DNA from: Coraliomargarita sp.
GTDB taxonomy: Bacteria > Verrucomicrobiota > Verrucomicrobiia > Opitutales > Coraliomargaritaceae
Reading direction: 5' to 3'
Assembly (NCBI GenBank): GCA_965216325.1
Contig: OZ244160.1
Coordinates: forward strand, 192,001 to 256,000
DNA length: 64,000 bases
The notes under the pieces are model-generated. The model ran no database searches. It was not told the origin of the DNA and worked only from the letters and a program-made list of their open reading frames with translations. Within the stretch, counting starts at the first letter, position 1; each line of letters begins with the position of its first letter. Made by a program: the position numbers and the translations under genes. Positions 54,363 through 63,511 of the stretch are shown piece by piece.

Positions 54363-54861
54363 CCACAAAAAACACGAAAAAGCACAAAAAACTATCAAAC
54401 TGAGGTTGTGCTAATCCTGGACGTATTTCTTGATGTATAGTTTGGGTGCGCCGAAATTGATAAGCAGACCATCGTGTATGCGGGCAGATTTCAGATAGCC
54501 AAGTATTTGAGCGACATGGTCCTCTGAGACTGAGCGAGTGGCTTTCAGCTCAACAATGATACGGCCTTCTACGAATAGGTCGGCGAAATACTCTCCGATA
54601 ACTGTTCCATCCTCATCGTAAACAGTCAGTGGGTGTTGCTGGATGACTTCTAGCCCTGCCTTTTGTAAGCGATGACACAGCGCGTTTTCATAGACTTTCT
54701 CCAGATGTCCATTGCGGTGATATTTGTGGATCGCGAAACTGGTTTCGCGGATGAGGTCGCAGAGTTCGTTGATTTGTTTCATGGAACTAACGTTACTAAT
54801 GGGGGTTCTTTATATTTCAAACGTCAGCAGAGTTTTTGTGCCTTTTGGTGTTTTTTGTGGC
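54362..54861. repeat. Inverted repeats bracketing the GxxExxY gene
   Basis: GCCACAAAAAACACGAAAAAGCACAAAAA (54362-54390) versus the reverse complement of 54833-54861 (27/29). Confidence 0.85.
54411..54782 (-). CDS. GxxExxY protein (PD-(D/E)XK-like)
   Basis: [41 protein letters not shown]. Confidence 0.93.
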
Positions 54862-54923: not shown

Positions 54924-55757
54924 ATGAACTGGGAAAAAGTCCGCGAATTCGAAGAGATTATTTATGAAAAGTGTGATGGCGTTGCCAAGGTCACGATCAA
55001 TCGTCCGCACCGTCGTAATGCGTTTACACCCGATACGGTGGGTGAGTTGATCGAAGCATTCACGGATGCACGTGAAGATTCCTCCATCGGTGTCGTTTTG
55101 CTGACAGGTTTTAATCCGCAGACAGATGGGAAGTTCGCGTTCTGTGCTGGAGGCGACCAAAAGATCCGCGGGCACAAGGCTGGCGGTTACATCGGCAAGG
55201 ATGGTGTGCCTCGTTTGAATGTCCTAGACCTTCAGAAATTGATCCGTTCGATGCCGAAGGTGGTGATCGCGCTGGTTGCAGGATACGCAATCGGTGGTGG
55301 TCATGTGCTCCATGTGGTCTGCGATATGACTATCGCCGCGGACAATGCGATCTTCGGTCAAACGGGCCCGAAGGTGGGGAGCTTCGATGGAGGCTTTGGC
55401 TCCAGCTACTTGGCACGTATTGTTGGCCAGAAGAAAGCGCGTGAGATTTGGTATCTCTGTCGCCAATACAATGCGCAGGAAGCGCTGGACATGGGCTTGG
55501 TCAATAAGGTGGTGCCCTATGAGCAACTTGAAGCCGAGGGCTACCAGTGGGCGCAGGAAATTCTGCAACACAGCCCGCTGTCGATTCGTTGCTTGAAGGC
55601 CGCCTTCAATGCAGATGTTGACGGTCAACAAGGCCTGCAGGAACTTGCCGGCAACGCGACCTTACTCTACTACCTCACTGAAGAGGGTGAGGAGGGCCGC
55701 CGTGCGTGGAACGAAAAGCGCGCTCCAGAGTTCAAGAAGTATCCTTGGTTGCCTTAG
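54924..55757 (+). CDS. menB: 1,4-dihydroxy-2-naphthoyl-CoA synthase
   Basis: [49 protein letters not shown]. Confidence 0.96.
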
Positions 55758-55824
55758 TCGTGCAACTTGTGGAGCCTTGCTTGTTCTTGACCACGTTCGC
55801 TCTAAATCATATGTCTGCATGCAT

Positions 55825-56574
55825 ATGAAGGGGGGTATATGTATACTGCTTGTTGCGCTCTGTGGCGCACTTTCAGCGGGAGAAACATGGACACTGACGA
55901 ATCAGAAGAATCAATCGATTGAGGTGGATTACATCTTCTATGATGGAGTTCAGCTTAGCTGTCGGAAGGTCGGAAGTGTCAATAAATTCAAGCTTTCGCC
56001 CAACGACCTCTCGAAAGAGTGCTGGAAGGAAATTCAGGCGAGTTTTGGCAACAGTGCTGTCATTGACCTGGAAGTGAGCCGTCGGACGAAAACGTCTTCA
56101 GATACGGACCGCACATCCTATTCGGGGTATTTCTCCACATACAGTCACGAGCGTAAGGATATTGAAAAGCTCAATTTGTTTACGATCGAGCTATCTTCTT
56201 CCTCACATTTTGCCTCAGAGGTGACGATTGAAACCTTCATCTTTGCAGATGGTGAGGTCGAGTATGGCCGTATTCCTGCGACAGTTTCGATGCGTGAATC
56301 CTTCGAAACTGTTGTGGAGAAGATGATGGAGAGTACTGAATACAGCTCAAAATCGTCTTACAGTGGAACTTATTACAAAAGCGAGTATGGCGACGATAAG
56401 GCTTATCTTGGAGTGATCGTGTTAAATGGTCGTGGTGAGGAGATTGCGGACTATGCTTCCTCTGGAAAAATTAAATCCAGAATGCACGCGATCAAGCACT
56501 CGGAGCGCCAGAGTTTTAAGCCGAAAGGTGGGGGCAAGGAAACGAACAAGAAGAAGTCCGTTGAAAGCCTCTGA
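55825..56574 (+). CDS. Exported hypothetical protein
   Basis: Signal-like N-terminus, then WTLTN.K...I (SHD1-like start); no family recognised. Confidence 0.6.
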   Translation: MKGGICILLVALCGALSAGETWTLTNQKNQSIEVDYIFYDGVQLSCRKVGSVNKFKLSPNDLSKECWKEIQASFGNSAVIDLEVSRRTKTSSDTDRTSYSGYFSTYSHERKDIEKLNLFTIELSSSSHFASEVTIETFIFADGEVEYGRIPATVSMRESFETVVEKMMESTEYSSKSSYSGTYYKSEYGDDKAYLGVIVLNGRGEEIADYASSGKIKSRMHAIKHSERQSFKPKGGGKETNKKKSVESL

Positions 56575-56580
56575 GGCTCG

Positions 56581-58143
56581 CTATTTTCGGTTCTTTATAT
56601 AGTCCAGTGCCTGGCTGACTGGAAGTTCGTCGCTCGAAGGGCCGTTGCGAATAAAGAAACTTTCGCCCTTGGTGTGCTTGAGGAAGACTGGTTCGTCGGA
56701 GCGTTGACATTCGGCAATGCCGACCAGTTTGCCGTCGAGAGTGACCGTGCGGAACTCGATGTATTTGGAGAACTCAGCGCCGATCTGTGCCGCGATCAGA
56801 TTTTTGAAATGGAGTTGTGCGTGGTCTTCGCTTTCGAACTTGTCGGCTTCAAGGCCGAGTATCTCGCCATCGTCCGAGACGCCGAGCAGTAGGGTGCCGC
56901 CATCGGTGTTGAGAAATGCGGCCACGCCCTTGAGCCATGCGGTTTCGATTTCCTTGCCCGGCTTGTTGGTGTGGAGGTTGGTCCGCATGGTGGACTTAAA
57001 CTCGCGGCGTTTACTTTCGCCACGCTTAATCATGTCTTGGACGCTCTCGATGGCTTTTGCGGGGTCGAACGGGACCGTTGGGCCTCCGCGGTGGCCAATT
57101 TGGCGCCTAGCCAAAACAAAGCTGAATGCAGCAGCGACCACTACCGCGAGCATGCCGAAGCCCATCAGCATACTGCGTCGTTCGCTTACCCCTTGTATGG
57201 TGTCTTGCTCGGGAACCATGACGCCCACCCATACATTCTGTTCGGGGTTGAGAGGACGAAAACCACACCACCAGACCTTACCACCGTGTCGGACTGCGAT
57301 GATTTTTTTCTCCTCGGAGGTATTTCGCCATGCCGAGTGTGCCTTCTTCGCCAGCTCATTATCGCTCTCTTGCATCGAAGTAAAGGCAGCGCCGTTCTCG
57401 GGATGCGTAGTATACATAGCCTCGTCACGGCGCAGAATCATGATCTGGCTGTTGGGGCTAGGCTGCATGTCTTGGATGCTGGCGTAGAGGTTCTGTAGAG
57501 AAAGGTCGAAGGCGATTACCAGTTGGTAACCTTCGGGGTTCTCCAGTTGTATTGAGCTGGACGCGGTGAGGCCGACGATCTTGTGCGTGAAGAAAATGTA
57601 GGCATCGGTCCAATACACCTCATCGGTACTGAGTGCTGGGTAAAACCACGGGCGGCTTCGAGCGTCGTAGTGACTGACTTCTCTGGTTTCGTTGAGCAGT
57701 TCGTCGCCATTCCAGATTTTGGTGACAGCCTGACGCTCGCCGTTCTTGATTCGGGTGTAGGTTGTCGTGATCGGGCCGTCGGCATCCGTGATGTAGTAGC
57801 TGCGACCATCGGTATCGGCGATGGAGAGGCCAAAGTGCTGACTGTCCTGCTGGATCAGTGGGAAGAGCAGGTGGTTCATCGCTTCGGGATCGTCCAAGGT
57901 CAGTAGCTCGGATTGAGCCCACTGGCGCACGATACGCACGGCATTGCTGGTCGCAGTTCCGACGATCCGAAACTCATTTGTTGCGCGGTCGGTTGACTGC
58001 TCAATGTAGGTGCTGGAGACATCCCGTTGCGCCTTACTCGCAAAATAAAGCGCAGGACCTAAGCCGACAAGGGTAAGGACGGCCAGCCCGATTATAAAAT
58101 CGCGCAGGAAGGTCTTGAGCAGAGTAGATTGTTTACGGGTCAT
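56581..58143 (-). CDS. Membrane protein: periplasmic dCache sensor fused to a cytoplasmic Schlafen/AlbA_2 domain
   Basis: TM1; YDARSRPWF...WTDAY...GLTAS...AFD Cache motifs; TM2; GESKRREFKST, AFLNTDGGTLLLGVSDDG, FFIRNGPSS. Confidence 0.85.
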   Translation of the reverse strand: MTRKQSTLLKTFLRDFIIGLAVLTLVGLGPALYFASKAQRDVSSTYIEQSTDRATNEFRIVGTATSNAVRIVRQWAQSELLTLDDPEAMNHLLFPLIQQDSQHFGLSIADTDGRSYYITDADGPITTTYTRIKNGERQAVTKIWNGDELLNETREVSHYDARSRPWFYPALSTDEVYWTDAYIFFTHKIVGLTASSSIQLENPEGYQLVIAFDLSLQNLYASIQDMQPSPNSQIMILRRDEAMYTTHPENGAAFTSMQESDNELAKKAHSAWRNTSEEKKIIAVRHGGKVWWCGFRPLNPEQNVWVGVMVPEQDTIQGVSERRSMLMGFGMLAVVVAAAFSFVLARRQIGHRGGPTVPFDPAKAIESVQDMIKRGESKRREFKSTMRTNLHTNKPGKEIETAWLKGVAAFLNTDGGTLLLGVSDDGEILGLEADKFESEDHAQLHFKNLIAAQIGAEFSKYIEFRTVTLDGKLVGIAECQRSDEPVFLKHTKGESFFIRNGPSSDELPVSQALDYIKNRK

Positions 58144-58185
58144 TTCCTGAGAGAAACGACAGGGGATAGCCGAAAAAGTTGCTGC

Positions 58186-59166
58186 TTACATAAAGTAGCG
58201 AACGTAGGCGCGGTTGCGCAAATCTTCGATCCAGCGCTCCTGAGTTTCACGGGCGATGTCGCCAACGAGAATGTCTTCAATGGTATCGCGCACCTCGCTG
58301 ATTGGCTGGATGCCTTCTTCACGCTTGTCCTCGCAGTAGAGGATGAAAACAGTGCCGTTGAGTTCGATTGGTTGGCTGTGTGCGCCTGGCTCTAGGTCGA
58401 ACGCGACATCGCTCAACTCCTTACGAATATCTTCGCGCTCCAGCCAGCCCCAATCACCACCGCGACGGCTCATTTCGTCCTGACTATACTTCCGGGCCAG
58501 ATCGCTGAAGTTTGTGCCTTCATCGAGTTCAGTCATGATCTTCTTCGCGGTTTGGCCGAGTAGGTCGAGACCTTCGTCCGCCATCGGGGTGAGGATGATC
58601 TGGCGCAGGTGCATGGACTCGTTCTGATAGAACTTGATCTTGTTACGCACGTAGAAGGCCTCGATGCGCTCAGGGCTCATTTCGGACTGCGACTTGCGGT
58701 TTTGCTGACGCATCACGTTAACCGTCACGCGCTTGCGAATCGATTCGCGGTATTCGCGTGGTGTCTGGCCCTGGGCTTTCAAATACTGGAGGAAACGCGC
58801 GCGGTCGCCGCCGAAGTCCCGCTGAAGTACGTCGTTATATTCCTGATCGATATAGGATTGTGGAATGAGCAGGCCCTTGTTTTCCGCTTCTTTCACAATG
58901 ATGATGCGGTCGATCATGTTCTGCAGTACTTCCTTGCTGAGCTCGTCGATGCGGCGGCGGAAGTCCTGTTCATTGCGAGATTCTACGCGGAGGCGTGGGA
59001 TGATTGGTTCCAGCTCGCGGCGCAGCTCTTCGACCGTAATGATCTGACCTTCGGCGATGGCGGCGATGCCGTTGCCGAGGCGAAGCATGTCGCGGGATTG
59101 TTGCGCGGAGGCAGAAAGTGTCAGGCCGAGAACGGCGAATAGGGCGATTAGGCGTGGAAAGGTCAT
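58186..59166 (-). CDS. SurA-like parvulin peptidyl-prolyl isomerase
   Basis: Signal peptide, [22 protein letters not shown]...GGDWGW. Confidence 0.85.
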
Positions 59167-62100
59167 GTGCGCGCGTGGCGTTGTAAAAACTTTGAAATTT
59201 CGGCCAACCTTAGAAGGGGATTCTTGGCGGTCAAGCGGGGAAAGCGGCTGCCGCTTTTTAGGAATTCCTTCTTGGGGCTGGGATTCGCCAGTCTGCAGAT
59301 CAGTCGGTCGCCCTCGGTTTCGACGCGACGCACCCCCGCCAGCTCAGCCAACACGCGGACTTTGCTCACGGCCAGTAGATGTTCGCTCGCTTTGGGCAAT
59401 TTGCCAAAGCGGTCCTCGAGTTCGTCGCCGATGGCACTAATTGTGTCGACTTGCTCCGCGAGGGCGAGGCGGCGGTAGAGATCGATCCGTAGGCGCGGTT
59501 CGGCAATATAATCGACGGGCAGTGCGGCCTCGACCACTTTTGCCTGCCGGTTGCCGTATTCGGCTTCCTTGATGGCTGCGAAGCTGTGTGTGCCGGTCGT
59601 GCTGCGGCGGGCGCTGGCACCTTCGCCGCTGGCGATAAAGTCGAGCTTCACTTCGGCTCGAATGCGGTCCGCGCCGGGCTCGCCCTTGAGGCGGGCAACG
59701 CTCTGCGTGAGCAACTGACAGTAGAGCTCGAATCCAACACCTGCGATGTGACCGCTCTGTTGCGAGCCGAGTAGGTTGCCCGCGCCGCGGAGTTCCAAGT
59801 CGCGCATCGCGATACGGAATCCGGCCCCGAGCTGGTTGTGTTGCTTGAGTGCGTTGAGTCGCTTTTGAGCTTGATCAACCAGTGCCGCGTGACGGTGGAG
59901 TAGGAGATAGGCGTAGGCTTGGCGTTTAAAACGGCCCACGCGTCCACGAATTTGATAGAGCTGCGCGAGCCCAAAGCGGTCGGCCCCTTCAATGATCAGC
60001 GTATTGCAATTTGGGATATCGATGCCGGACTCGATGATCGTGGTGCAGACCAGCACGTCAAAATCACCGGCGACGAATTTGGTCATGATTTTCTCGAGCT
60101 GACCTTCTTCCATCTGCCCGTGCCCGACGGCTACCTTGAGGCGCGGGTGCATCTCGCGGATGGTGTTGGCGACACCCTCAATCGTGCTGACACGGTTGTG
60201 CAGGTAAAACACCTGACCGCCGCGATCGGTTTCGGCCTGAATCGCGCTTTTAATGAGGTCGAGGTCGTAGCTTTTGACCACGGTCTCGATCGGACGACGG
60301 TCCACGGGTGGTGTTTCAATCACGCTCATTGCCCGTGCGCCGGCCATCGCTAGATACAGTGTGCGCGGAATCGGCGTTGCGCTGAGGGTGAGAATGTCGA
60401 CGTCAGCGCGCAGGCGCTTGATCGCTTCCTTTTGTTTGACGCCAAAGCGTTGTTCCTCGTCCACGACTAGCAGGCCAAGGTTTTGAAAGTGCACGTCTTT
60501 GCTGAGCAGGCGATGGGTGCCGATTACGATGTCGATACGGCCTTCGGCGAGGTTGGCGATGATTTCCTTGTTTTGCTTCGTGCTGCGGAAGCGGCTTACC
60601 ATGTCGATAATGATGGGGAACTGCGCCATGCGCTCACGGAAGGTATTGAAGTGTTGCTGGCAGAGCACCGTGGTCGGCACCAGCACCGCGACCTGCTTGC
60701 CCGCAAGCACCGCCTTGAGCGCAGCGCGGATCGCGACCTCGGTCTTACCAAAGCCCACGTCCCCGCAGATCAAGCGATCCATTGGTAGTGGCTTTTCCAT
60801 GTCCTCCTTGGTGGCGTCGATGGCGTGTAGTTGATCGGGCGTCTCTTTGTAGGGGAAGGCATCCTCGAAGGACTTTTGCCAGAGGTGGTCGGGTGGGAAG
60901 GCATAGCCACCAGCGTTTTCACGCTGTGCGTGCAGGTTGAGCAACTCGGCGGCGTAGTCGAGGGTTGCGATTTCAGCAGCCCCGCGGGTCTTGTCCCACG
61001 CGGCTCCGCCAATCTTGCCGAGTTTGGGTAGGCTCTTAGTGAGGCCGACGTAGCGGGTAAGGAGGTGCGACTCGTGCAGGGGCACGTGAATCGTCATATC
61101 GTCGGCAAACTCGACCGAAATGACTTCCTTGGTGCCGCCTTGAATATCCAGCTTGGTCAGGCCACGGAATAGGCAGATGCCGTGTTGCAAGTGCACCAGT
61201 GGGTCCCCATCGGCCAGTTCGGTGAAGTCGAGCATCTGATCGACCTGTGAGATCGTTGGACGGGCGCGCTCCTTGCGAGTGTGCAACTTGCGGCGGCGGG
61301 TGCCGAAGTATTCGCTTTGGGTGATGAGGACGAAGCCGGAGGAGGTTGGGGTCCCGGCTTTAGCCGGCTTCGAGCTAGATATAAAACCGCCTAAAGGCGG
61401 GACCCCAACCTTATCCTGACGAAAGATAAACCCAGCGCCAATGTTGCCTTGCAGATACTGAGGCTTGAGCTTCGCGGTCAGCGGATTGTCAGCCAGCAGA
61501 TCTTTGATGCGCTCGGCTTCGCTTGCGTTTTGAGTGGCGAAGCAAAGCTGTAACTGGTCTTGCTTGGCCCAGTCGGCCAGCTGGCTTTCGAATTTTGAAC
61601 GGGTGCTTTGCTCCGATTCGAAGCGGTCGAAGCCGACCTGAGTCGCGTCCGTGTGCAGTCGGTAGTTTTCGGTGGCCTCGGTGGAGAGGCCAATGCGTTC
61701 GGCATCTTTAAAGAGCTCCGGCGCTGTATCCACTTCGCAAATACCGAAGTATTGGTCGTCTGCGGGTGCACGGTCGGCTATGACTTTATAGAAGCTGCGC
61801 TGGTTGTTTTTTTCGAAGCGTAGGGGGTGTTCCCGCACCAATAGGGCGGGGTCTTCGAGGAGCCATTGGATGGATTCAATGGGAAGGTAATCGATAAGGT
61901 TGCCTTCACTGGAGGAGGCCGTGCTTTCGTTGCCAATGGCTGCGGCGATACTGATCGATTGCACCGGATGGGTTGTGCGCTGCGAGGCTGGATCAAAGCT
62001 ACGGATGCTCTCGATCTCGTCGCCGAAGAAGTCGATGCGGTAGGGCTCGTTGGCGTCGTAGGGGTAGATATCGATCAATCCGCCGCGGGTCGCCAGTTGC

Positions 62101-62594
62101 CCCGGATGTTCGCAGAGTGCCTCCGCGTCGTAGTTGAGTTCGTCGGTGAGCCGACTGATTAGCTCGGTGAAGGGCAGTTCATCACCGACATTGAGTTTGA
62201 TTTGCTGGCTCTCGAACTGGCTGCGCTTGGGGCAGGCACCTAGGAGAGCTTCGGGTGTAGCGATGAGGACCTGCTTGCTAGAACTCGGTTGAAGTAGGGC
62301 GCTGAGCACAGCGAGGCGTTCGCAGATGCGGTCGGCACGGCGATTGACGTCGATGTCGGGCGGGGGTTCTTCGGGGAAGTGATGCACCGCCATCGTCTCG
62401 GCTTGTCCCAACCAGCTTGCAAAGGTTTCGGCCTCGGCTGCAGTGCTTTCAGCGCGGCGTGGGTTGGCGACCAAGGCCACTGTGAGCTCGACAGAACTCT
62501 CGCGGCAGAGGCTTGCGTAGAGTGCAGCGCGTGCTTCAAGGCAGACGCCGTGTAGCAACTGGGCCTTGCTTAACTCTGGAGGTGATTTGGGCAT
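59163..62594 (-). CDS. mfd: Transcription-repair coupling factor
   Basis: [65 protein letters not shown]. Confidence 0.97.
61343..61411. repeat. 69-bp REP-like palindromic element within the mfd coding sequence
   Basis: 25-bp arms AGGTTGGGGTCCCGGCTTTAGCCGG / CCGCCTAAAGGCGGGACCCCAACCT (23/25). Confidence 0.85.
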
Positions 62595-62706
62595 AGCTAA
62601 GGTGAGACCCCTTCCACCTGGCAAGCAGGTGACCTCCTCTTAGCAGGGGAGGGGCTCAAACTCCCCTCCTTGTTGAGGTGGGGTGGTGCTTTTCTAGGCT
62701 GAGCAT

Positions 62707-63381
62707 CTACAATTTTTCCAGCGCATCGGCGGCTGCCGCGATTTCAGCCGCCTTCTTGGAACTGCCGCTGCCTTGACCCAGCTGTTCGCCATTTAGATAG
62801 ACGGCTGCTTCGTAATGGCGGGCGTGGTCGGGGCCTTCGGCTTTGATCAATTGGTACTCAGGCTTTGCGCCATTGTGAGCGCTCTGGCTCCATTCTTGTA
62901 AGCGACTCTTGGGAGTGCCGTTTGCGAACTGCTTGCCTGCAGTGGTGATGTCGTTGCCAAAGATACGCAGCACGCTGGTCTTTGCGGCGGAGAGTCCACC
63001 ATCCAAATAGATTGCGCCGATCAGCGCCTCGATCGCGTCTTCCAGCATGCGGTCGCTCGGATCGGGGTGGTGTTTGCGTTGTGCGTCGCTCACTTCAAGG
63101 AGTTGAGCCAAGCCAAGTTCGCGCGCTTTGGGTGCCAGCGCACGGCCATTGACCAGACTGGCGCGCATCCGGTCGAGTGCGCCTTCTTCGAGTTCGGGGA
63201 ATGCGTCATAGAGTGCTTCGGCGATGATCAAGTCGAGCACCGCGTCGCCTAAAAATTCAAGTCGTTGATTGTCATGCACTCCGAGGCCAAGGCTCGGGTG
63301 CTTGAGGGCAAGCTCGAGCAGATCACGATTTTTAAATCGGTGATCAATTTGTGACATCAGCTGGTCGAAATTGGTCTGCAT
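62707..63381 (-). CDS. rnc: Ribonuclease III
   Basis: [24 protein letters not shown], dsRBD (KSRLQE, GPDH, SKKAAE). Confidence 0.96.
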
Positions 63382-63511
63382 TGCTAAATTTTAATGAACT
63401 TGGCTTTACGGCTTGCGCCAGCAAGGGGATTTTATTGGCTGTTTATTAGTTCATTCACCTCCCGCAGGCAACCGTTGGGAGACGATTTTACCCGCTACGA
63501 ATACCTTTCCA

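What the first reader, a model, noticed from the sequence alone, without database searches (positions are those of the whole stretch)
56581..58143. Transmembrane receptor coupling an amino-acid-type dCache sensor directly to a Schlafen/AlbA_2 nuclease-like domain
Seen in sequence: TM1, a periplasmic region of about 290 aa, TM2, a short linker with no HAMP, kinase or cyclase domain, then an AlbA_2/Schlafen domain. The periplasmic part has Y-x4-R-x-W(F), a Tyr 16 residues after the Trp and an Asp 31 residues later (YDARSRPWF...DAY...AFD). Established: this spacing fits the dCache_1 amino-acid-binding signature (YxxxxRxWY..Y..D), and Schlafen RNase domains use an E-x4-E-x-K plus downstream Asp motif, retained here as GESKRREFK and GVSDD. 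Inference: a one-component system in which a periplasmic ligand (amino acid, cell-wall fragment or phage cue) controls cytoplasmic tRNA/rRNA cleavage or nucleic-acid binding. I do not know a characterised Cache-Schlafen receptor. It lies 42 bp downstream of the SurA-like gene on the same strand as rnc and mfd, not in an obvious defence island.
Basis: partly seen in the sequence, partly recalled or inferred. Interest (0 to 1): 0.88.

Follow-up and report, generated by a model that had tools for sequence, protein, structure and literature searches.

The report
Amino-acid-type membrane sensor fused to Schlafen RNase
This gene encodes a membrane receptor whose outer part looks like a bacterial amino-acid sensor and whose only inner part is a Schlafen-type RNA-cutting domain; the design has been listed in two published surveys but never studied.

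Summary
ORF 56581-58143 (-) encodes a 520-aa protein: TM1, a 289-aa periplasmic double-Cache domain, TM2, a 29-aa linker and a SLFN_AlbA_2 domain (Pfam E 4.5e-20). No HAMP, kinase or cyclase domain was found.

The sensor carries the published amino-acid motif in an accepted variant (Y159, R164, W166, F167, Y182, D213). Its model matches solved amino-acid chemoreceptor domains best.

The cytoplasmic domain keeps E376-x4-E381-x-K383 in 120 of 120 homologues and D424 in 119 of 120. It superposes on the catalytic lobe of SLFN11, 12, 13 and 14 (Z 9-11) and on the SAMD9 tRNase domain (Z 12.7).

The family is large and spread patchily over several phyla. It has no conserved neighbour and no defence-island context in the loci sampled.

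It is not unrecorded. Gumerov 2022 lists 'AlbA_2,dCache_1' (11 proteins). Perez Taboada 2026 lists 'Cache.pSlfn' as group pSlfn12 (25 members, defence score 0.36, untested).

Best reading: a one-component receptor in which an extracellular amino-acid-like ligand controls RNA (probably tRNA) cleavage. Ligand, substrate and biological role are inferred, not shown.

The parts
56581..58143 (-). Whole gene, 520 aa plus stop: Cache-Schlafen receptor
   Evidence: ORF list and translation. Full-length homologues at 41-91% identity.
58039..58098 (-). TM1, residues 16-35
   Evidence: Hydropathy. In the model it is part of one long helix, residues 4-77.
57172..58038 (-). Periplasmic double-Cache (two PDC modules) sensor, residues 36-324
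   Evidence: Model pLDDT is mostly above 85. Best Foldseek matches are dCache ligand-binding domains of Mlp24, Mlp37, PctA, PctB, Tlp3, CtaA and PscC. PF22673 scores 26.5 bits.
57505..57669 (-). Amino-acid-binding motif region, residues 159-213 (Y159, R164, W166, F167, Y182, D213)
   Evidence: Positions and conservation. Motif definition. The variant Y....R.WF{n1}Y{n2}D is listed as accepted.
57106..57171 (-). TM2, residues 325-346
   Evidence: Hydropathy. Helix 319-350 in the model.
57019..57105 (-). Cytoplasmic linker, residues 347-375: a low-confidence stretch at 350-356, then helix 361-374
   Evidence: Model. The distance from R347 to E376 is 27-28 residues in 96 of 120 homologues, range 25-31. 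No Pfam domain.
56584..57018 (-). SLFN_AlbA_2 (Schlafen-type nuclease) domain, residues 376-520
   Evidence: Pfam E 4.5e-20. Domain model pLDDT 91.1. VIA-align Z 13.8 to 3LMM, 12.7 to the rSAMD9 tRNase domain, 9-11 to SLFN11/12/13/14/5.
56995..57018 (-). E376-x4-E381-x-K383 motif
   Evidence: Invariant in 120 of 120. Aligns with ESTHVEIK of SLFN12. Ex4(E/D)xK is the catalytic motif according to PMC13056530.
56869..56883 (-). G421-V-S-D424-D425, the downstream acidic residue
   Evidence: D424 is kept in 119 of 120. It aligns with the last Asp of GVHD in SLFN5 and GVDD in SLFN13.
58186..59166 (-). Upstream SurA-like PPIase gene, 42 bp away on the same strand; a possible co-transcript
   Evidence: Pfam Rotamase and SurA_N_3. 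The same neighbour is seen in 2 congeneric loci.
59163..62624 (-). mfd (transcription-repair coupling factor); overlaps the SurA-like gene by 4 bp
   Evidence: Pfam TRCF, CarD_TRCF_RID, DEAD, UvrB_inter.

Best explanation
The gene encodes a one-component transmembrane receptor. A periplasmic double-Cache domain of the amino-acid-binding type (dCache_1AA) is joined through TM2 and a short linker of fixed length to a single Schlafen/AlbA_2 nuclease domain in the cytoplasm.

The most likely working is this. Binding or loss of an extracellular amino acid, or a molecule like one, changes the arrangement of receptor subunits in the membrane. That brings the tethered Schlafen domains into, or out of, an active assembly. 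The active assembly then cuts RNA, most probably tRNA, and so throttles translation.

Shown here: the topology, both folds, the intact ligand motif, the intact catalytic motif, and conservation of the whole design. Inferred: the ligand class, the RNA substrate, the direction of gating, the oligomeric mechanism, and whether the output serves physiology or phage defence.
For: Architecture and topology.

Sensor:
- Foldseek's best solved matches are amino-acid chemoreceptor dCache domains (Mlp24, Mlp37, PctA/B, Tlp3, CtaA; E 1e-10 to 1e-8, TM-score by target 0.6-0.75).
- The AA_motif residues are present with the published spacing.
- The exact variant Y....R.WF{n1}Y{n2}D makes up 7% of bacterial motif-bearing proteins in Dataset S1 of PMC8915833. 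It is the variant recorded there for the Pontiella sulfatireligans assembly, which also holds one of that paper's 11 AlbA_2,dCache_1 proteins.
- R164, the carboxylate-binding Arg that amine sensors lack (PMC10589655), is kept in 119 of 120.

Effector:
- Pfam 72.8 bits.
- A profile of 50 family members matches SLFN13, SLFN5 and SLFN12 at E 7e-5 to 1e-4. E376-x4-E381-x-K383 lies on ESTHVEIK of SLFN12.
- VIA-align places the domain on SLFN11 residues 188-352 and SLFN14 residues 177-349. These are the lobes holding the residues mutated in the entries titled 'E209A' and 'E211A'.
- E376, E381 and K383 are kept in 120 of 120, D424 in 119 of 120.
- The cytoplasmic domain is far better conserved than the sensor: 64.5% against 38% mean identity to the query over 119 homologues.

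Precedents:
- Single-domain prokaryotic Schlafens are tRNases switched on by a fused sensor: RorSlfn5 by a phage protein (PMC13056530, abstract) and Cash by the small molecule cA4 through rearranged oligomers (PMC13462974, abstract and passages).
- The same Schlafen subtype is fused to receiver (REC) domains next to REC+Hpt genes in two congeners. This shows it being used as an output of ordinary signalling.
Against: No binding, cleavage or gating was measured.

The window protein itself stays just under Pfam's cut-off for the PDC_1 family (26.5 against 27), and dCache_1 (PF02743) did not appear at E up to 1. The Cache call therefore rests on the fold and on homologues; 24 of the 120 listed carry PF02743 by my count.

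The linker has a low-confidence stretch at residues 350-356, which the sequence shows to be rich in Gly and Pro. A rigid helical relay as in HAMP receptors is therefore unlikely, and the gating mechanism is open.

AlbA_2 domains also bind DNA: the SAMD9 DNA-binding domain scores Z 12.8. Some mammalian Schlafens are reported to lack nuclease function (PMC13462974 introduction).

The AA_motif predicts a ligand class, not a ligand. This family has no tested member.
Confidence: 0.5

Rival explanations
1. It is a dedicated anti-phage, abortive-infection-type sensor. The periplasmic domain detects an infection-linked cue, such as envelope damage, released cell-wall amino acids or a phage component. 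The Schlafen domain then destroys tRNA to stop phage production.
For: Prokaryotic Schlafens as a class are shown to be defence effectors, and 69.6% lie within 10 kb of a defence gene (PMC13056530, section 6).

The Schlafen profile of this family scores 128-170 bits on three GmrSD_N(DUF262)-Slfn proteins of the same phylum. That domain composition protected E. coli as EcoSlfn7.

The distribution is patchy. A full-length match was found in 4 of 301 sampled genomes of the phylum. It was found in 3 of 3 other genomes of the genus but in none of the 21 other genomes of the family that were searched. The domain tree mixes phyla. All this fits an accessory, horizontally moved gene.
Against: Group pSlfn12 has a defence score of 0.36, below that paper's 0.5 cut-off.

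In the window the neighbours are rnc, mfd, a SurA-like gene and menB/menD.

In 16 diverse loci, 148 neighbour ORFs gave no complete PADLOC system. There were only generic cross-hits, plus one full-length SoFic match 5 kb away in 1 of the 16 loci. The protein itself matches no PADLOC model.

A small-molecule pocket conserved in 120 of 120 homologues is unlike the fast-evolving protein sensors of known phage-triggered Schlafens.
Confidence: 0.2
2. The AlbA_2 domain does not cut. It is a membrane-tethered nucleic-acid-binding module, for example a ToxR-like regulator that binds DNA or sequesters an RNA when the sensor is occupied.
For: Source databases name homologues 'putative DNA binding domain-containing protein' or 'RNA-binding domain-containing protein'.

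The best fold matches include DIP2311 (AlbA_2 plus ATPase, Z 13.8) and the SAMD9 DNA-binding domain solved with DNA (Z 12.8). SLFN5 entries are titled DNA/RNA-binding protein.
Against: The three acidic residues and the Lys of the nuclease motif are kept in 119-120 of 120 homologues. That is hard to explain without catalysis.

The same SAMD9 domain is also deposited as a tRNase domain (9O0D).

No HTH or other DNA-reading domain is present.
Confidence: 0.12
3. The Cache domain senses something other than an amino acid, or serves only for anchoring or dimerisation. The RNase is then regulated by another input such as membrane state, a partner protein or proteolytic release.
For: The motif predicts only a class of ligand. 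The linker looks flexible. Forms with the same Schlafen subtype but only TM segments and no Cache domain exist: a 280-aa protein in L006, and 275-aa and 309-aa proteins in L102 and L103.
Against: All five key motif residues, with R164 and D213 (mutation of their PctA counterparts R126 and D173 reduced or abolished binding), are conserved across phyla. No conserved partner gene was found in 62 loci.
Confidence: 0.1

Closest known systems
pSlfn12 ('Cache.pSlfn' / 'Cache.Cache.pSlfn') in Supplementary Table 2 of Perez Taboada et al. 2026, Nat Microbiol (PMC13056530)
   Same: The same domain composition. The group's 25 members include a record of about the same gene length (NC_014008.1_854, 1560 bp), Desulfovibrio-type records and others. 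I did not fetch or align those proteins.
   Different: It is only a row in a table, annotated by structural homology. The main text does not contain the words Cache, membrane, transmembrane or periplasm. The group's defence score of 0.36 is under the paper's cut-off and no member was tested. The amino-acid motif, the topology and the neighbourhoods described here are not in that paper's text.
'AlbA_2,dCache_1' architecture in Dataset S2 of Gumerov et al. 2022, PNAS (PMC8915833)
   Same: Eleven proteins with a dCache_1 domain bearing the AA_motif and an AlbA_2 domain. They include Pontiella sulfatireligans and Chromatiaceae genomes, whose homologues are in my locus set.
   Different: It is listed among hundreds of architectures. 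In the passages I read, the main text names only the major receptor classes. None of the eleven was tested for binding, and the output domain is not discussed.
CbCash (Csx15-Schlafen), PMC13462974
   Same: A single prokaryotic Schlafen domain switched on by a small-molecule ligand bound to a fused sensor. It cleaves tRNA, and activation works by re-arranging oligomers so that catalytic interfaces align.
   Different: It is soluble, its ligand is intracellular cA4 from type III CRISPR, and its sensor is Rossmann-like. Here the sensor is extracytoplasmic, the protein is membrane-bound, and no CRISPR link exists.
RorSlfn5 (Ig-like-Slfn) and EcoSlfn7 (DUF262-Slfn), PMC13056530
   Same: A Schlafen nuclease with the Ex4(E/D)xK motif fused to a sensor. 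DUF262-Slfn proteins of the same phylum score 128-170 bits with this family's Schlafen profile.
   Different: Those are cytoplasmic phage sensors in defence contexts. RorSlfn5 is triggered by a phage tail assembly chaperone.
Amino-acid chemoreceptors with dCache_1AA domains (PctA, Mlp24/37, Tlp3, CtaA)
   Same: The same sensor fold and the same ligand motif, set between two TM helices.
   Different: Their output is a HAMP plus methyl-accepting signalling domain feeding CheA. Here no such domain exists and the output is a nuclease domain.
Mammalian SLFN11/12/13/14 N-terminal nuclease core
   Same: The fold of the catalytic C-lobe (Z 9-11), and the E-x4-E-x-K and Asp positions.
   Different: The mammalian core has two lobes, and most members (SLFN12 excepted) carry a helicase domain. 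Here there is one lobe only, so an active site or RNA channel probably needs two or more subunits (inference).

Membership tests
dCache_1 / dCache_1AA (amino-acid-sensing double Cache) | Extracytoplasmic domain of two PDC modules after a long N-terminal helix, set between two TM helices | tested here: met
   Model: helix 4-77, strands 103-215 and 233-311, TM2 319-350. Foldseek's best matches are solved dCache ligand-binding domains, TM-score by target up to 0.75.
dCache_1 / dCache_1AA (amino-acid-sensing double Cache) | Pfam HMM match over the gathering score (PF02743 or PF22673) | tested here: not met
   PF22673 scores 26.5 bits against a cut-off of 27. PF02743 is not reported at E up to 1. 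Among the 120 listed homologues, 24 carry a precomputed PF02743 hit by my count, and most carry PF22673.
dCache_1 / dCache_1AA (amino-acid-sensing double Cache) | AA_motif: [Y/F]-x4-R-x-W-[Y/F], then Y after 13-17 residues, then D after about 27-34 residues | tested here: met
   Y159, R164, W166, F167; 14 residues; Y182; 30 residues; D213. Definition. The variant Y....R.WF{n1}Y{n2}D is listed.
dCache_1 / dCache_1AA (amino-acid-sensing double Cache) | Binds amino acids | not testable with these tools
   Needs ITC or thermal shift on the purified domain.
Prokaryotic Schlafen nuclease (pSlfn; Pfam SLFN_AlbA_2) | PF04326 over the gathering score | tested here: met
   72.8 bits against 25.3, residues 376-507 covering profile positions 1-117 of 118.
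Prokaryotic Schlafen nuclease (pSlfn; Pfam SLFN_AlbA_2) | Ex4(E/D)xK catalytic motif | tested here: met
   E376, E381 and K383 are invariant in 120 of 120. They align to ESTHVEIK of SLFN12. The motif is as given in PMC13056530.
Prokaryotic Schlafen nuclease (pSlfn; Pfam SLFN_AlbA_2) | Third acidic residue in the GVxD strand | tested here: met
   D424 is kept in 119 of 120 and aligns to the Asp of GVHD in SLFN5 and GVDD in SLFN13. That this Asp is the catalytic one (D252 in SLFN11, D248 in SLFN13) is recalled, not taken from a call.
Prokaryotic Schlafen nuclease (pSlfn; Pfam SLFN_AlbA_2) | Fold of the Schlafen catalytic lobe | tested here: met
   Z 13.8 (3LMM), 12.7 (rSAMD9 tRNase domain), 11.4 (SLFN14), 10.2 (SLFN11 residues 188-352), 9.8 (SLFN13). 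Matches outside the AlbA_2/Schlafen/SAMD9 family score 5.5 or less.
Prokaryotic Schlafen nuclease (pSlfn; Pfam SLFN_AlbA_2) | tRNA/RNA cleavage | not testable with these tools
   Needs an enzyme assay.
Anti-phage defence system | Matches a known defence model, or sits in a defence island | tested here: not met
   No PADLOC match for the protein. Window neighbours are housekeeping genes. In 16 loci and 148 ORFs there was no complete system. The published group score is 0.36.
Anti-phage defence system | Protects against phage | not testable with these tools
   Needs phage challenge.
Classical transmembrane signalling receptors (MCP, histidine kinase, GGDEF/EAL, cyclase, Ser/Thr kinase) | HAMP or one of these output domains after TM2 | tested here: not met
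   None is reported by Pfam up to E 1. NCBIfam gives only a weak sensor-region match to GepA (25.3 bits against 1200).

The most novel reading that the evidence does not exclude
An extracellular amino acid, or a metabolite like one, is read by a Cache domain and passed across the membrane directly to a Schlafen tRNase, with no phosphorelay or second messenger. That would be a chemoreceptor-like RNase that tunes or shuts down translation in response to the chemical surroundings.

Together with the REC-Schlafen response regulators in the same genus, it would make the Schlafen nuclease an ordinary output domain of bacterial signal transduction. It would also give prokaryotic Schlafens a non-immune, physiological role conserved in several phyla.
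Probability: 0.35. Interest if true: 0.8.

Novelty: new member of a known kind. Interest (0 to 1): 0.55.

Why it matters
Prokaryotic Schlafens have only just been shown to be tRNA-cutting immune effectors. Each studied case is cytoplasmic and is triggered by a phage protein or a CRISPR second messenger.

This family is the clearest candidate for a Schlafen controlled from outside the cell by a small molecule, and the ligand class is already predicted. The hypothesis can therefore be tested directly with routine assays: ligand binding by the sensor, and RNase activity and toxicity of the output with point mutants.

If confirmed, it would add an RNase to the short list of output domains of transmembrane one-component receptors. 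It would also address the open remark in PMC13056530 that about 30% of prokaryotic Schlafens are not defence-associated and may have non-immune functions.

Tried and rejected
**Homodimer of the cytoplasmic domain.** Complex prediction with two copies of alignment A2 scored 0.01 against a mark of 0.42. No controls were run and the verdict was 'no answer'. It says nothing for or against dimerisation.

**Promoter and terminator scan of 55500-63500.** It found 2 promoter-like and 9 terminator-like sites, within the numbers seen in shuffles. This gives no information on whether the gene is co-transcribed with the SurA-like gene and mfd.

**Expression.** Two RNA-seq runs of one sample (X18, X20) and one possible RNA run (X19) hold short contigs of 154-296 nt at depth about 3. 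They cover parts of the gene and of the SurA-like gene. X21 held nothing. These are contigs in RNA libraries, not proof of transcription, and no contig bridges the 42-bp gap.

**Conserved partner gene.** I clustered neighbour ORFs from 61 of the 80 fetched loci plus the window. The 19 dropped loci had short contigs or partial matches. My crude ORF caller recovered the gene itself in 56 of the 62. No neighbour family occurred in more than 12 of 62 loci. Neighbours are conserved only within clades.

**A separate 'signalling' clade of Schlafen domains.** I considered that Cache- and REC-fused Schlafen domains form a clade apart from defence Schlafens, and could not show it. The quick tree has a single very long outgroup, so its root is unsafe. 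DUF262-fused, defence-type proteins score as high with the family profile as the REC-fused ones do.

**Earlier findings of this scan.** Searches by place and by sequence returned nothing.
Full report
**1. The observation.**

Window 56581..58143 on the minus strand is an uninterrupted ORF of 520 codons with an ATG start. Hydropathy gives two membrane segments, residues 16-35 and 325-345. The 289 residues between them form the periplasmic part. K/R-rich stretches precede TM1 and follow TM2 (R346, R347), so both ends are cytoplasmic.

Pfam places SLFN_AlbA_2 at residues 376-507 (72.8 bits, cut-off 25.3, E 4.5e-20). It gives a near-threshold MCP-like_PDC_1 match at 151-219 (26.5 bits, cut-off 27). 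Nothing else of note appears up to E 1, and no HAMP, kinase, cyclase, GGDEF or HTH domain. NCBIfam gives only a weak sensor-region match, and PADLOC gives nothing.

**2. The gene belongs to a real, large family.**

A search of 5.8 billion protein clusters gave 618 proteins at E up to 0.001 among the 7,997 candidates scored. The best 120 are 478-565 aa, align over nearly the whole length at 41-91% identity, and all carry PF04326. Where sources name them, the names are generic: 'RNA-binding', 'putative DNA binding' or 'ATP-binding'.

In the species-representative genome collection, 555 of 599 candidate stretches encode a relative. The named records come from:
- Coraliomargarita
- Pontiella and other Kiritimatiellales
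- Desulfosarcina, Desulfocapsa and Desulfuromusa
- Chromatiaceae and Sedimenticola
- Myxococcota, Calditrichia and a Thermoguttaceae MAG

A profile of the cytoplasmic domain found 10,912 cluster representatives at E up to 0.001, and 1,423 at E up to 1e-30. Of the best 150, 117 are 477 aa or longer. Most of the 33 shorter ones are N-terminally cut pieces of the same architecture.

**3. The sensor.**

The full-length model is confident (mean pLDDT 87.9). It shows the canonical double-Cache layout: one long helix running from TM1 into the periplasm, two PDC modules, and a return helix that becomes TM2.

Foldseek's best solved matches are almost all ligand-binding domains of amino-acid chemoreceptors: Mlp24 with Gly, Asn, Arg, Pro or Ser; Mlp37; PctA with Met, Ile or Trp; PctB; Tlp3; CtaA; and PscC.

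Gumerov et al. 2022 (PMC8915833; passages and three supplementary files read) define the amino-acid motif as Y121, R126 and W128 for the carboxylate, and Y144 and D173 for the amino group. The two halves lie 13-17 residues apart, and the Asp follows some 27-34 residues later. Here the counterparts are Y159, R164, W166, Y182 and D213, with gaps of 14 and 30 residues.

Across 120 homologues the counts are as follows:

| Position | Conservation |
|---|---|
| W166, Y182, D213 | invariant |
| R164 | 119 of 120 |
| 159 | Y in 89, F in 28 |
| 167 | F in 106, Y in 14 |

The exact variant Y....R.WF{n1}Y{n2}D is on that paper's list of accepted variants, at 7% of bacterial motif-bearing proteins. The position of F167 (Y129 in PctA) is described as a structural aromatic that does not touch the ligand. 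The Arg is what distinguishes amino-acid sensors from amine sensors (PMC10589655, passages). The sensor is therefore of the dCache_1AA type by every test I could run, except Pfam's own score threshold for this one sequence.

**4. The output domain.**

A model of residues 349-520, built on 50 family sequences, is very confident (pLDDT 91.1, pTM 0.87). Foldseek and VIA-align agree on its relatives:

| Solved structure | VIA-align Z |
|---|---|
| DIP2311 (3LMM) | 13.8 |
| SAMD9 DNA-binding domain | 12.8 |
| rSAMD9 tRNase domain | 12.7 |
| SLFN14 | 11.4 |
| SLFN5 | 10.3 |
| SLFN11, residues 188-352 | 10.2 |
| SLFN13 | 9.8 |
| SLFN12 | 9.7 |
| Best unrelated chain | 5.5 or less |

By sequence, the family profile finds SLFN13, SLFN5 and SLFN12 in the PDB at E 7e-5 to 1e-4. 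E376-S-K-R-R-E381-F-K383 aligns with E-S-T-H-V-E-I-K of SLFN12. GVxD424 aligns with GVHD of SLFN5 and GVDD of SLFN13.

Perez Taboada et al. 2026 (PMC13056530; abstract, section 6, passages and one supplementary table read) state that the C-lobe of SLFN11 holds the catalytic Ex4ExK motif and that prokaryotic Schlafens conserve Ex4(E/D)xK. That the Asp of the GVxD strand is the third catalytic residue is my recollection of the SLFN13 and SLFN11 literature, not a result of a call.

In the family, E376, E381 and K383 are kept in 120 of 120 and D424 in 119 of 120. The output domain is much better conserved than the sensor: 64.5% against 38% mean identity to the query. Mean column identity is 0.80 for the output domain against 0.54-0.57 for the two sensor modules. 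An intact, strongly constrained nuclease site is the simplest reading.

**5. The link between them.**

After TM2 comes a stretch of low model confidence (350-356) that the sequence shows to be rich in Gly and Pro. A helix (361-374) then leads straight into the first catalytic Glu.

The linker sequence is poorly conserved, but its length is tightly held: 27-28 residues in 96 of 120, range 25-31. This does not look like a rigid helical relay.

I therefore favour control by subunit arrangement. A single-lobe Schlafen domain probably needs partners to build an RNA-binding channel. SLFN11 binds one tRNA between two subunits. Cash is switched on when cA4 rearranges its oligomers so that catalytic interfaces align (PMC13462974, abstract and passages). 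This step is inference. My one attempt to test dimerisation gave no verdict and is reported only under Tried and rejected.

**6. Context and distribution.**

In the window the gene follows rnc, mfd and a SurA-like PPIase on the same strand. It converges on an unannotated 321-aa ORF, beyond which lie menB, a small PDDEXK_3 gene and menD. This arrangement recurs only in congeners.

Across 62 loci no neighbour family is shared by more than 12. Each clade has its own housekeeping setting:
- Kiritimatiellales: a PLD-domain protein upstream and TatD downstream.
- Desulfocapsa: Mla genes, DUF3124 and NhaA upstream, with an AP_endonuc_2 protein downstream.
- Chromatiaceae: a convergent PolyA_pol/HD (CCA-adding type) gene.

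PADLOC on 148 neighbour ORFs from 16 diverse loci gave only generic cross-hits, one full-length SoFic match 5 kb away, and no complete system.

The distribution is patchy. The full-length gene was found in 3 of 3 other genomes of the genus. It was found in none of the other 21 genomes of the family that were searched, and in 4 of 301 sampled genomes of the phylum, counting the window's own. A quick tree of the output domains puts the window's clade (support 99) inside a well-supported group that mixes Desulfobacterota, Kiritimatiellota and MAGs labelled as other phyla. The gene thus behaves as an accessory, horizontally exchanged gene that lands among ordinary genes.

**7. The same output domain on other inputs.**

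Two congeners encode receiver-domain proteins of 311 and 341 aa, each REC plus Schlafen. They are 40-41% identical to residues 365-519 here and sit next to a REC+Hpt gene. That is a two-component response regulator with a Schlafen output.

Other genomes of the phylum carry the subtype behind two or three TM segments only, behind unknown N-terminal parts of about 190 aa that precede a TM segment, behind an AAA_22 ATPase, and, in three genomes, behind GmrSD_N/DUF262. The last is the composition that protected E. coli from phages as EcoSlfn7.

So the evidence cuts both ways. The domain is used as an output of ordinary signalling modules, and it is also closely related to a proven defence effector. 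I could not separate a 'signalling' clade from a 'defence' clade.

**8. What is already known.**

The architecture is not new to the literature, but only as table rows.
- Dataset S2 of Gumerov 2022 lists 'AlbA_2,dCache_1' with 11 proteins among dCache_1AA receptors.
- Supplementary Table 2 of Perez Taboada 2026 lists 'Cache.pSlfn', 'Cache.Cache.pSlfn' and 'Cache.Cache.Cache.pSlfn' as group pSlfn12. It has 25 members and a defence score of 0.36, under the 0.5 cut-off, and was not among the seven systems tested. CheY.pSlfn is its group pSlfn18, with 14 members and a score of 0.5.
- That paper's main text has no occurrence of Cache, membrane, transmembrane or periplasm. The Cash paper has none of Cache or transmembrane.
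- A full-text search for AlbA_2 together with Cache found no paper.
- A preprint on SLFN-Argonaute fusions was seen only in a search listing.
- Two earlier follow-ups in this scan reached the same reading for homologues in other genomes. They are not independent evidence.

**9. Verdict.**

The finding is real, and its domain interpretation is right. It is a member of a catalogued but wholly uncharacterised group: an amino-acid-type Cache receptor whose only output is a catalytically intact Schlafen nuclease domain.

The most likely mechanism is ligand-controlled assembly of an RNase, probably a tRNase, at the membrane (confidence about 0.5). The main rivals are a dedicated phage-defence role (0.2) and non-catalytic nucleic-acid binding (0.12).

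The main text of neither survey read here connects the predicted ligand class, the topology and the housekeeping contexts. Together they make a direct experimental test straightforward.

Noticed in passing
L008:1489-2424 (-) and L009:949-1974 (+), two genomes of the same genus: Response regulators made of a receiver (REC) domain plus the same Schlafen subtype (311 and 341 aa, 40-41% identical to residues 365-519). Each lies beside an ORF with REC and Hpt domains. This is a two-component pathway ending in a Schlafen nuclease domain. The window's own genome has only the one PF04326 match, though 24 kb of it is withheld.
   Followed up: partly
L020, L022, L027, L028, L029, L032, L036, L038, L041 (Kiritimatiellales loci): The Cache-Schlafen gene lies between a 600-700-aa protein with two PLD domains (20-103 bp upstream) and a TatD-family hydrolase (3-81 bp downstream), all on one strand. 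This may be a three-gene operon of nucleic-acid- or lipid-cleaving enzymes. PADLOC cross-hits to DrmC and QatD are explained by the shared domains.
   Followed up: partly
L042, L046, L051, L056, L063, L068, L086 (Chromatiaceae and other Gammaproteobacteria): A convergent PolyA_pol + HD gene (CCA-adding / poly(A) polymerase type, 405-444 aa) lies just downstream of the Cache-Schlafen gene; where it is the nearest called ORF its end is 3-30 bp from the gene's end. A tRNA 3'-end repair enzyme beside a putative tRNase may be more than chance. I did not test this.
   Followed up: no
L096:646-2946, L097:862-3114, L098:592-2850 (three genomes of the phylum): GmrSD_N(DUF262)-Schlafen proteins of about 750 aa. 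Their Schlafen domain scores 128-170 bits with the Cache-Schlafen family profile. This is the composition shown to protect E. coli from phages in PMC13056530.
   Followed up: partly
window 55609-56574 (+): A 321-aa ORF convergent on the gene, with no Pfam match. An internal Met is followed by a hydrophobic, signal-peptide-like stretch, so the true start may be later and the product secreted. Congeneric loci have an unannotated 256-292-aa ORF at the same place.
   Followed up: no
window 54411-54782 (-): A small PDDEXK_3 nuclease-superfamily protein (123 aa, E 6e-30) wedged between menD and menB on the opposite strand, overlapping the longest menB reading frame.
   Followed up: no
L016 (a contig of a MAG labelled Yoonia, Alphaproteobacteria): It holds a 63%-identical full-length copy whose Schlafen domain groups with the Coraliomargarita copies (support 99). 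This is either a mis-binned contig or a recent transfer.
   Followed up: no
G306:C3:48954-50429 (-): The full-length match is split into two pieces (profile positions 154-522 and 1-129) that overlap by a few bases. This could be a frameshifted copy or an assembly error in that genome.
   Followed up: no
L094 (G000:C1:1342729-1343436, +): The only other dCache_1 match in the window's genome over the Pfam cut-off (66.8 bits) has a TAA inside the matched stretch. It may be two genes or a broken one.
   Followed up: no
L006:1243-2085, L102:232-1056, L103:309-1235: Short (275-309 aa) proteins with two or three predicted TM segments and the Schlafen domain but no Cache domain: membrane-tethered Schlafens without an obvious sensor.
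   Followed up: partly
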